Source of the DNA: Escherichia coli
GTDB lineage: Bacteria; Pseudomonadota; Gammaproteobacteria; Enterobacterales; Enterobacteriaceae
Strand: one strand, 5' to 3'
DNA length: 64,000 nt
NCBI RefSeq assembly: GCF_046105845.1
Contig: NZ_CP151004.1
Positions within the stretch are counted from its first letter, which is position 1, and each line of letters starts with the position of its first letter. Made by a program: the position numbers. Shown one piece after another: positions 1 to 3,000 of this stretch.

Positions 1-3000
1 TCCATCACGCACTCCATATATTGATCCTAAGTAAAATTCCTGGTTGTTATCAGTTTGTAAACAGCAAACAAAAACTTAACGTTTGCGGATTACTGCCCAA
101 GAATAAGTTATCAATAACCAGTTTGTGATCTCTGAAGAATATTACTAAAGTTAAAATGTAATCCGATTTAAATATCGAGTCTCCTTGTTTCGACTTAAGC
201 TGGCAATTGGATTGCCAGCTTTCTTTTAACGCATTGAAATTACCTGAGTAAATAACTCATTCATGTCTTCAGGTTTTTATATAGCGTCTGGAGACACGGA
301 TATTTATGCAATGTAATCAACGCCAGTTGCAAAAAAATGAACCCGGATTACTTATTTAACCGCCCATAGCATCAACGCTTACGGAACTCTTTGTTCACTT
401 TCCCACAGCACTTTTAAAACATTAAACCTGACTACGGAAAATATCAGCCATGATAATGTTTGAAATGGCTAATTTGCCATGGAATGAAAAAAATTAGATG
501 AAATTCAGTAGGTTGAAATAATCATCAGCAGGTAATTATTTCAATGATAGTGCGCAATTGATCTACAACGCTGTGTAGCGGAGAGAGTATTAATCGGATC
601 ATAGTCACATCAAGTGACTATGATCCGGGTGACAACAGGGATAATTATTGCTGCTTAACGAACAAACTGGCGAAGCTGAACAGGCTGGCGGCGCTAAATA
701 TCAGTTCAATACCCACCAGTGTGGAAACCAAAGTTACAGACACCATCGGCGTTGCACCAAGGAATATCCATGCAATGACGATATCCAGCACACCAATAAC
801 GAGCTGTAGCCAGCTGCCTTTCATTGAACGCTGACGATACCAACTCATCAGGCGAATAACCCCTGCAACACAGAACAAACCGGCAATAAATGCCGCAATG
901 GCAAAAATGCCCAGCTCCGGTGCGCGGATGAAGAAATAGCCGATCAATAAATAGGCGACTGCGACGAGGAAACCGGATAATACAGGCCAGAAATTATGAC
1001 TGCGGTTGCTGAATAATCCAACAATAAGCGCTATGCCCGAGCAGATTAATAATGCACCCACTACCGTGCTTAAAATATCGCCAGAGACGAACGGGAAACT
1101 GATACACAGCAACCCGACGATAAACAGTAGCACGGCAATAAACTGGATTGCTCTGCGATGCTTTTTCAGCATCTCCAGATCAAACTTCAAAATTGTTGCC
1201 TTATCTATATATAACATAGAACCACCCTATAAAATTAAGAAGAAAATCCCCTGCTATCAATCTATGCCAAAAACGCGTCTAAGAATGCAGTCGATTTAAT
1301 AAAAATTTCCTAATTACAGTATCTGATGCATCTGTAACTCATTGTATTGAAATAAAAATATCTGATTTTGATATTTTCCATCAACATGACATATACAGAA
1401 AACCAGGTTATAACCTCAGTGTCGAAATTGATTCGTGACGGCTCTTTCACTTTATAGTTGAGGATATTACGATGAAAAAAGTATTAGGCGTTATTCTTGG
1501 TGGTCTGCTTCTTCTGCCAGTTGTGAGCAATGCAGCGGATGCGCAAAAAGCAGCTGATAACAAAAAACCGGTCAACTCCTGGACCTGTGAAGATTTCCTG
1601 GCTGTGGACGAATCCTTCCAGCCAACTGCAGTTGGTTTTGCTGAAGCGCTGAACAACAAAGATAAACCAGAAGATGCGGTTTTAGATGTTCAGGGTATTG
1701 CAACCGTAACCCCAGCTATCGTTCAGGCTTGTACTCAGGATAAACAAGCCAACTTTAAAGATAAAGTTAAAGGCGAGTGGGACAAAATTAAGAAAGATAT
1801 GTAATTCCGGGAATGCGTTACATCGTACTTCCTTGCATATTGAACAGGCCGGAATATCTTCTTTAAAAGCAGCTATTCCGCCTGTTCATATATAATCTCT
1901 ATATTGAATGGGTTACAAAATGAATATTTCATCTCTCCGTAAAGCGTTTATTTTTATGGGCGCTGTAGCGGCTTTGTCACTGGTGAACGCACAATCTGCG
2001 CTGGCAGCCAATGAATCCGCTAAAGATATTACCTGCCAGGAATTTATTGATCTGAATCCAAAAGCAATGACACCGGTTGCATGGTGGATGCTGCATGAAG
2101 AGACAGTATATAAAGGTGGCGATACCGTTACTTTAAATGAAACCGATCTCACTCAAATTCCTAAAGTGATCGAATACTGCAAGAAAAACCCGCAGAAAAA
2201 TTTGTATACCTTCAAAAATCAAGCATCTAATGACTTGCCGAATTAATGAGGTACAAGTAAAAAGGAGTAGCAAGTTGAGCCATCTTGCTGCTCCTTTTTG
2301 CATTTTTATATGACAGCAGAATTTATTATACGTCTTATACTCGCAGCAATTGCCTGTGGCGCTATTGGCATGGAAAGGCAAATACGCGGCAAAGGAGCAG
2401 GGTTACGCACACATGTATTAATTGGCATGGGAAGCGCCCTGTTTATGATTGTTTCGAAATATGGTTTTGCTGACGTACTGTCTTTAGATCACGTCGGACT
2501 GGACCCCAGCCGTATTGCTGCTCAGGTGGTGACGGGCGTCGGGTTTATCGGTGCAGGTAACATTCTCGTTCGTAACCAAAATATTGTAGGTCTGACGACG
2601 GCAGCGGATATCTGGGTGACCGCCGCCATAGGTATGGTTATTGGCAGTGGTATGTACGAACTGGGTATTTATGGTTCAGTGATGACCTTGCTGGTGCTGG
2701 AAGTCTTCCATCAATTAACCTTCCGCCTGATGAACAAAAATTACCATTTACAGCTGACATTAGTGAACGGTAATACGGTATCAATGCTCGACTGGTTTAA
2801 GCAGCAAAAAATAAAAACGGATTTAGTTTCGTTGCAGGAAAATGAAGATCATGAAGTGGTCGCCATTGATATCCAGCTTCATGCCACGACGTCGATAGAA
2901 GATCTGTTGCGATTATTAAAAGGTATGGCAGGGGTGAAAGGCGTTTCAATTAGCTAATCTGTATAGTTATTTATTCGCAGGAGTACCAAAGCGGTACTCC

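What the first reader, a model, noticed from the sequence alone, without database searches (positions are those of the whole stretch)
1..644. Window opens inside the long gadE upstream regulatory region
The first 644 bp are non-coding and AT-rich. By synteny this is the large gadE–hdeD intergenic region, which in K-12 holds multiple gadE promoters and an antisense sRNA. Only part of it is present, so its elements cannot be fully annotated from this window.
Basis: established knowledge. Interest (0 to 1): 0.2.

Follow-up and report, generated by a model that had tools for sequence, protein, structure and literature searches.

The report
Known gadE upstream regulatory region
The first 644 bases are most of the well-studied control region upstream of the E. 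coli acid-resistance regulator gene gadE, including a complete copy of the small antisense RNA gene arrS; it is ordinary and already described.

Summary
The observation and the interpretation both hold. Window 1-644 has no conserved protein-coding frame and is AT-rich: 36% G+C against 50% for the whole window. It ends at the hdeD stop codon (hdeD = 645-1217, minus strand). It aligns without gaps, 631/644 (98.0%), to the reverse complement of the first 644 bp of the 798-bp hdeD-gadE intergenic region of E. coli K-12. The gadE start codon would therefore lie 154 bp beyond the left edge. The five related E. coli genomes and seven other Escherichia-type loci whose flank I inspected have gadE there. 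One rare deletion variant does not.

- The sRNA gene arrS is complete at 158-227 (+), 100% identical to K-12 b4704, with its terminator hairpin at 197-221.
- The published gadE transcript starts T3 (-566) and T2 (-324/-317) map to window 412 and 170/163 on the minus strand.
- Only T1 (-124), the -21 start and the proximal leader lie off the window.

Comparison across Escherichia species shows conserved blocks at 1-60, 101-227 and 401-480, and an indel-prone stretch at 228-400. A hairpin 3' of hdeD (595-627) keeps its pairing through compensatory changes.

Verdict: already known, low interest.

The parts
1..644 (-). Distal 644 bp of the 798-bp hdeD-gadE intergenic region (the gadE 'sensory integration' promoter region). 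gadE would be read leftwards, with its ATG 154 bp beyond window position 1. A position -n relative to the gadE ATG corresponds to window position n-154.
   Evidence: Gapless alignment to K-12, 631/644 identical. Found in 5413 of 5426 complete E. coli genomes, always on the chromosome. gadE is adjacent in the relatives inspected.
158..227 (+). arrS, a 70-nt sRNA gene antisense to the 5' leader of the longest gadE transcript (T3).
   Evidence: Exact 70/70 match to K-12 arrS (b4704). Predicted fold -20.2 kcal/mol, z = -3.84. Nearly invariant across Escherichia species.
197..227 (+). arrS intrinsic terminator: an 11-bp stem with a 3-nt loop (197-221), followed by TCTTTT.
   Evidence: Found by the terminator scan, as inverted repeat I3 and in the fold. 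The one E. coli variant seen in the stem (A198G in the EC69 and D8 strains) would still pair, as G-U.
123..151 (+). Putative arrS promoter: TTGTGA (123-128), a 17-bp spacer, TAAAGT (146-151), with C at 145. The hexamer ends 7 nt before the annotated 5' end at 158.
   Evidence: Read from the sequence. The block is conserved across Escherichia species. The consensus scan did not call it. The assignment is an inference; published sigma-S and GadE dependence is cited in bioRxiv 10.1101/271551.
163..170 (-). Positions of the published gadE T2 5' ends (-317 and -324). They fall inside the stretch complementary to ArrS.
   Evidence: Coordinate conversion from PMC3708157, using the gapless alignment.
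412..412 (-). Position of the published gadE T3 transcript start (-566).
   Evidence: Coordinate conversion. The base is A on the gadE strand.
401..480 (-). Conserved core of promoter P3. Candidate -10 TAATGT (424-419) and -35 CTGATA (447-442) on the minus strand, plus short inverted repeats (413-424/454-465 and 443-451/465-473).
   Evidence: 7.55 to 8.0 of 8 sequences identical per 20-bp bin across Escherichia species. Inverted repeats. The hexamers were read from the sequence and are an inference.
228..400 (-). Part of the T3 leader between the T3 start and the ArrS-complementary stretch. It is well conserved within E. coli but indel-prone or deleted in other Escherichia species.
   Evidence: 3 variable positions in the 185-bp segment 228-412 among six E. 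coli strains. Deletions of roughly 60-90 alignment columns in E. albertii, E. whittamii and two other Escherichia lineages.
1..60 (-). Conserved block upstream of the off-window P1 promoter (about -155 to -214 from the gadE ATG). It includes TTAGGATCAATATATGGAGT at 30-11.
   Evidence: Conservation. Similarity to the gadA GAD box is only 11/20, which is not above chance.
595..627 (-). Hairpin 3' of hdeD: a 14-bp perfect stem with a 5-nt loop, starting 17 nt after the stop codon, with no U-tract after it.
   Evidence: Inverted repeat I1. Fold -26 kcal/mol, z = -7.79. Across 8 Escherichia sequences 93.8% of cells pair and 3 pairs have changes on both sides; the slid controls pair at 23-48%.
645..1217 (-). 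hdeD coding sequence, the flanking gene that fixes the right-hand boundary.
   Evidence: 190-aa ORF, annotated as hdeD in relatives.

Best explanation
Window 1-644 is the hdeD-proximal 81% of the chromosomal hdeD-gadE intergenic region of an E. coli-type genome. [quoted passage not shown]

Shown here:
- The region is homologous and collinear with the K-12 region.
- It holds a complete, sequence-identical arrS gene with an intrinsic terminator.
- The published gadE 5' ends T3 and T2 map to window positions that are identical to K-12 at and around those sites.
- Across the genus the region shows a conservation pattern (blocks at 1-60, 101-227 and 401-480) that matches the location of these elements.

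Inferred from the literature, not testable on sequence:
- gadE is transcribed leftwards from several promoters in this region (P3 and P2 inside the window, P1 just outside it).
- H-NS silences the AT-rich DNA, and activators such as EvgA, YdeO, GadE/RcsB, GadX/W and ArcA relieve that silencing.
- ArrS, made from the opposite strand under sigma-S and GadE control, pairs with the T3 leader. This favours RNase III-dependent processing to a shorter, more stable transcript. The T2 5' ends lie inside the ArrS duplex region, which fits this model.
- ArrS also acts in trans through Hfq, for example on cfa mRNA.

The hairpin at 595-627 belongs to the 3' end of the hdeD transcript. It most likely acts as a 3' stabiliser or termination signal.
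For: - Gapless alignment, 631/644 identical to K-12.
- K-12 annotation of hdeD, arrS and gadE.
- gadE is adjacent in the closest genome and in three further strains.
- The region is present in 5413 of 5426 complete E. coli genomes, always chromosomal.
- arrS matches exactly at 158-227, with a terminator.
- Genus-level conservation profile.
- hdeD hairpin covariation.
- Literature: 798-bp region with starts at -21, -124, -324/-317 and -566, H-NS and ArcA control (PMC3708157); ArrS acting in cis with RNase III (PMC6212723; PMC6872547); ArrS acting in trans with sigma-S and GadE control (10.1101/271551; PMC5145812); H-NS/StpA occupancy of the locus (PMC11230228).
Against: - gadE itself is not in the window, so adjacency in this particular genome is inferred from relatives.
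- No complete E. coli genome in the collection matches the window exactly. The best is 99.7% here and 97.6-98.7% over 50 kb.
- No Rfam family matched arrS, so its identification rests on identity to the K-12 annotation.
- No GAD-box match above chance was found in 1-644.
- Promoter hexamers were read by eye. The consensus scan found fewer promoter-like sites than in shuffled sequence.
- PMC6872547 notes that direct ArrS-guided cleavage of T3 has not been demonstrated.
Confidence: 0.96

Rival explanations
1. The region is a remnant. In this genome gadE has been lost or displaced by a deletion or mobile-element insertion just left of the window, so the sequence no longer controls gadE.
For: Such variants exist. 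In strain 3059 a Tn3-family transposase remnant replaces everything on the gadE side up to window position 412. 8 of the 5413 matching genomes cover less than 80% of the query.
Against: The window keeps all 644 bp intact up to its edge. A breakpoint would have to fall in the missing 154 bp or beyond. 5405 of 5413 matching genomes cover at least 80% of the query, and every full-length genome inspected has gadE adjacent.
Confidence: 0.02
2. The region encodes an unannotated small protein, for example the 35-aa TTG-initiated ORF at 21-128 (+), in addition to its regulatory elements.
For: The ORF is open in all six E. coli strains compared.
Against: It has a TTG start. The differences among strains mostly change amino acids: 5 changed residues from about 9 variable nucleotides. 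Single-nucleotide indels fall inside it in other Escherichia species. The other two ORFs are broken or deleted in relatives. K-12 annotates nothing there.
Confidence: 0.02

Closest known systems
E. coli K-12 hdeD-gadE intergenic region (gadE 'sensory integration region'; Ma et al. 2004 and Sayed & Foster 2009, as cited in PMC3708157)
   Same: Same flanking gene (hdeD) and same length register with no indels. 98.0% identity over the 644 bp present. The sequence is identical to K-12 at and around the positions corresponding to T3 (-566) and T2 (-324/-317). AT-rich like the rest of the acid fitness island.
   Different: 13 substitutions, at window 35, 54, 62, 75, 257, 481, 484, 525, 526, 570, 574, 637 and 641. 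None is in arrS or within about 50 bp of the T2 and T3 positions. The 154 bp nearest gadE (T1 and the -21 start) are outside the window. In this genome the acid fitness island is also split by the chu/shu haem cluster downstream of yhiD, unlike K-12.
ArrS sRNA (K-12 b4704; Aiso et al. 2011 and 2014, as cited in 10.1101/271551, PMC6212723 and PMC6872547)
   Same: 70/70 identical sequence, same position and orientation relative to gadE, same terminator hairpin.
   Different: None detected at the sequence level. Expression and function in this strain are untested.

Membership tests
hdeD-gadE intergenic region (gadE promoter / sensory integration region) | Lies immediately downstream of the hdeD stop codon, within the acid fitness island gene order hdeD / hdeA-hdeB-yhiD | tested here: met
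   hdeD 645-1217 (-), hdeA 1472-1804 (+), hdeB to 2246 (+), yhiD to 2957 (+).
hdeD-gadE intergenic region (gadE promoter / sensory integration region) | Sequence homology to the K-12 region along its whole length | tested here: met
   Gapless, 631/644 identical.
hdeD-gadE intergenic region (gadE promoter / sensory integration region) | gadE is the next gene on the other side | not testable with these tools
   The window ends 154 bp short of where gadE would start. gadE is there in K-12, 2012C-4221, EC69, D8 and O157:H7 SS17, and a GadE coding match lies across the intergenic region from hdeD in seven further Escherichia-type loci.
hdeD-gadE intergenic region (gadE promoter / sensory integration region) | Transcription of gadE starts at T3 and T2 within the region | not testable with these tools
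   The positions map to window 412 and 170/163, and the sequence there is identical to K-12. Actual transcription needs RNA data.
hdeD-gadE intergenic region (gadE promoter / sensory integration region) | Contains a GadE/RcsB binding site (GAD box) | tested here: inconclusive
   Scanning with the K-12 gadA GAD box gave at best 13/20 in 1-644, equal to the mean of shuffles. The conserved TTAGGAT-containing site at 30-11 scores 11/20.
ArrS antisense sRNA | Sequence identity to the annotated K-12 arrS gene | tested here: met
   Exact 70-nt match at 158-227 (+).
ArrS antisense sRNA | Rho-independent terminator at the 3' end | tested here: met
   11-bp stem at 197-221 followed by TCTTTT.
ArrS antisense sRNA | Encoded antisense to the 5' leader of the gadE T3 transcript | tested here: met
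   arrS is on the + strand at -312 to -381 from the gadE ATG. This lies between T3 (-566) and the ATG, on the strand opposite gadE.
ArrS antisense sRNA | Acid, sigma-S and GadE-dependent expression; Hfq binding | not testable with these tools
   Only a promoter-like TTGTGA-17-TAAAGT with C at -13 can be read at 123-151. Regulation is from the literature.
ArrS antisense sRNA | Match to a curated RNA family model | tested here: not met
   No Rfam 15 hit at 158-227 at E up to 1. I did not check whether Rfam has an ArrS family, so this does not weigh against the identification.

The most novel reading that the evidence does not exclude
The hairpin 3' of hdeD (595-627) lacks a U-tract yet keeps its pairing through compensatory changes across Escherichia species. 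It, or the genus-invariant inverted-repeat block around P3 (401-480), could be an undescribed functional element. Examples would be a processing or stability determinant that yields an hdeD 3'-UTR RNA, or the binding site of one of the gadE regulators whose site has not been mapped.
Probability: 0.1. Interest if true: 0.25.

Novelty: already known. Interest (0 to 1): 0.07.

Why it matters
It matters little beyond correct annotation. The region controls gadE, which governs survival of E. coli in stomach acid, but it has been studied intensively in K-12. The window's copy differs from K-12 by 13 substitutions, none in arrS or near the T2 and T3 positions. The useful output is a precise coordinate map for this window: arrS, the T2 and T3 positions, the P3 core and the hdeD hairpin. 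A second output is the genus-level view of which parts of the region are constrained.

Tried and rejected
- Rfam scan of 1-3000 at E up to 1. Nothing matched in 1-644. The only hits were chance 'mir-761' matches to the hairpin at 2258-2300 between hdeB and yhiD.
- Consensus promoter scan. It found 3 sites against 4.7 expected, so it was uninformative, and it missed the literature promoters. It did find the arrS terminator.
- GAD-box scan with the K-12 gadA box. Nothing above chance in 1-644. The best match in 1-1500 is 15/20 at 1313-1294 in the hdeA/hdeD promoter region.
- Small-ORF reading. Rejected because the frames are not conserved.
- Primary papers (Sayed & Foster 2009; Ma et al. 2004; Aiso et al. 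2014). None is held in the library, so transcript-start positions and the ArrS mechanism are cited from secondary sources.
- The 21-mer scan of species genomes also returned Photobacterium and Terribacillus loci. These share only the hairpin and no flanking sequence, so I rejected them as unrelated.

Full report
**Observation**

The window begins with 644 bp that end exactly at the stop codon of a 190-aa minus-strand ORF (645-1217). The closest genomes annotate this ORF as hdeD.

G+C is 0.36 over 1-644 against 0.50 for the whole window. Only about 6% of 644-bp tiles are as low, and these lie in a few other AT-rich islands.

Three short ORFs of 20 aa or more occur, all with TTG or GTG starts. 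None is conserved as a reading frame:
- 525-608 has a stop in the EC69 and D8 strains.
- 261-332 sits in a segment that other Escherichia species have deleted.
- 21-128 differs among strains mainly by amino-acid-changing substitutions and is hit by 1-nt indels in other species.

**Identity**

Megablast of 1-644 finds the sequence in 5413 of 5426 complete E. coli genomes. It is always chromosomal and almost always single-copy. 201 genomes are at 99% identity or more, 4107 at 95-99% and 1105 at 90-95%.

Against K-12 MG1655, the reverse complement of 1-644 aligns without any gap to the first 644 columns of the 798-bp hdeD-gadE intergenic region (NC_000913.3 3657568-3658365). 631 of 644 positions are identical.

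The window therefore starts 154 bp short of the gadE ATG. A position -n from that ATG corresponds to window position n-154.

- In the closest complete genome (2012C-4221, two mismatches) the intergenic region is also 798 bp, with gadE, mdtE and mdtF beyond it.
- The same adjacency is seen in EC69, D8 and O157:H7 SS17.
- A GadE coding match lies across the intergenic region from hdeD in E. albertii, E. whittamii and the other Escherichia lineages retrieved by a 21-mer scan of species genomes.

**Elements inside the window**

*arrS.* K-12 annotates arrS (b4704) at 3657985-3658054 on the strand opposite gadE. The 70-nt sequence occurs exactly at window 158-227 (+). Its 3' end is an 11-bp stem with a 3-nt loop (197-221) followed by TCTTTT. 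The terminator scan, the repeat finder and the fold all recover it (fold -20.2 kcal/mol, z -3.84).

Upstream of arrS one can read TTGTGA (123-128), 17 bp, then TAAAGT (146-151), preceded by C at 145. This would suit the sigma-S dependence reported for arrS (10.1101/271551). It is an inference from the sequence.

*gadE transcript starts.* PMC3708157, citing Ma 2004, Itou 2009 and Sayed & Foster 2009, gives gadE transcript starts at -21, -124 (T1), -324/-317 (T2) and -566 (T3) in the 798-bp region.
- T3 maps to window 412 (-). A candidate -10 TAATGT lies at 424-419 and a -35 CTGATA at 447-442.
- T2 maps to 170/163 (-), inside the stretch complementary to ArrS.
- T1 and the -21 start fall 30 and 133 bp outside the window.

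So the statement that the elements cannot be annotated from this window is too pessimistic. Only the proximal promoter and leader are missing.

**How it works (from the literature, not tested here)**

The AT-rich region is covered by H-NS/StpA and silenced. Condition-specific activators relieve this at the individual promoters (PMC3708157; PMC11230228).

ArrS is induced by acid through sigma-S and GadE. It pairs with the T3 leader, and overexpression leads to more of the stable T2 species in an RNase III-linked manner (PMC6212723; PMC6872547). PMC6872547 stresses that direct cleavage has not been shown. The location of the T2 ends inside the duplex region is consistent with processing.

ArrS also binds Hfq and acts in trans. 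It activates cfa by masking an RNase E site (PMC5145812; 10.1101/271551).

**Variation and conservation**

Among six E. coli strains, 46 of 644 positions vary. The density by segment is:

| Window segment | Variable / length | Fraction |
|---|---|---|
| arrS (158-227) | 1 / 70 | 1.4% |
| 228-412 | 3 / 185 | 1.6% |
| 1-157 | 11 / 157 | 7% |
| 413-500 | 6 / 88 | 7% |
| 501-596 | 15 / 96 | 16% |
| 597-629 | 4 / 33 | 12% |
| 630-644 | 6 / 15 | 40% |
| hdeD coding (645-1217) | 28 / 573 | 4.9% |

The 13 differences from K-12 lie at 35, 54, 62, 75, 257, 481, 484, 525, 526, 570, 574, 637 and 641. None is in arrS or close to the T2 and T3 positions.

Across eight Escherichia sequences (alignment A2) three blocks stay nearly invariant:
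- 1-60, upstream of the off-window P1;
- 101-227, the arrS promoter and gene;
- 401-480, the P3 core and T3 start.

By contrast, 228-400 carries deletions of roughly 60-90 alignment columns in E. albertii, E. whittamii and two other lineages, and 481-644 is poorly conserved.

A scan with the K-12 gadA GAD box found nothing above chance in 1-644. The GadE/RcsB site implied by the literature could not be placed by sequence alone.

**hdeD 3' hairpin**

A perfect 14-bp stem with a 5-nt loop lies at 595-627, starting 17 nt after the hdeD stop. On the hdeD strand it folds at -26 kcal/mol (z -7.79). No U-tract follows, so it is not a canonical intrinsic terminator.

Across the eight sequences 93.8% of cells pair and three pairs change on both sides. 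With the 3' partners slid by 1-3 columns, pairing drops to 23-48%. The number of independent events is small, probably two or three. Two positions keep pairing only as G-U on the hdeD sense strand, which points to an RNA-level role. The most likely role is 3'-end stabilisation or termination of hdeD mRNA. This is an inference.

**Rivals**

A genome in which gadE has been lost next to this sequence is possible but unlikely. Strain 3059 has a Tn3-family remnant replacing the gadE side up to window 412. The window is intact to its edge, and 5405 of 5413 matching genomes cover at least 80% of the query.

A hidden small protein is not supported.

**Verdict**

The finding is correct and ordinary. 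It is the known gadE upstream regulatory region with a complete arrS gene. Novelty: already known. Interest is low.

Noticed in passing
window 3009-11964: A chu/shu haem-uptake cluster lies between yhiD and dctR and splits the acid fitness island, unlike K-12. It comprises the ABC ATPase, chuU, chuY, chuX/hutX, chuW, chuT, chuA and chuS. This marks the source as a chuA-positive E. coli or Shigella lineage.
   Followed up: partly
L012 (NZ_JAUFQN010000010.1, 'Flavobacterium paronense CECT 8460'), 1884-4280: An 8.6-kb contig of a Flavobacterium assembly is 98% identical to window 1-2400 and carries hdeD and gadE. This is almost certainly E. coli DNA contaminating that public assembly. Its gadE region aligns at only 72.6% protein identity, which suggests assembly errors.
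   Followed up: partly
L007 (E. coli strain 3059) 3047-4232; corresponds to window 413-644: In this blood isolate a truncated Tn3-family transposase and a truncated pyridoxal-dependent decarboxylase gene (presumably gadA) abut the region. Everything from gadA to window position 412 is deleted (gadE, mdtEF, gadW and gadX). The breakpoint coincides with the T3 start position.
   Followed up: partly
L010, L015 (Photobacterium spp.) and L014 (Terribacillus halophilus): The 21-nt arrS terminator hairpin occurs exactly in three unrelated genomes with no flanking similarity (23-27 nt matches only). These are probably independent hairpins.
   Followed up: partly
window 1-50108 against L003: The nearest complete genome for the first 644 bp (2012C-4221) is only 98.7% identical over 1-16720 and 97.6% over 16863-50108. 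The alignment breaks at about 16720-16863, next to an ArsR-family gene. No complete E. coli genome in the collection matched 1-644 exactly.
   Followed up: no
window about 12900-14900 and 32200-33000: Two other strongly AT-rich stretches (G+C 0.31-0.39). By collinearity with 2012C-4221, the first covers slp and a frameshifted hypothetical gene downstream of it. The second covers the yhiM end and the start of the first DUF4049 gene.
   Followed up: no
window 2258-2300: A long perfect hairpin lies between hdeB and yhiD. It gives weak chance Rfam hits to 'mir-761' on both strands and is probably the hdeAB terminator or attenuator.
   Followed up: no
window 1294-1313 (-): The best match to the gadA GAD box in the first 1.5 kb (TTAGGAAATTTTTATTAAAT, 15/20) lies in the divergent hdeA/hdeD promoter region. 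This fits the reported GadE occupancy there (PMC4918353).
   Followed up: partly
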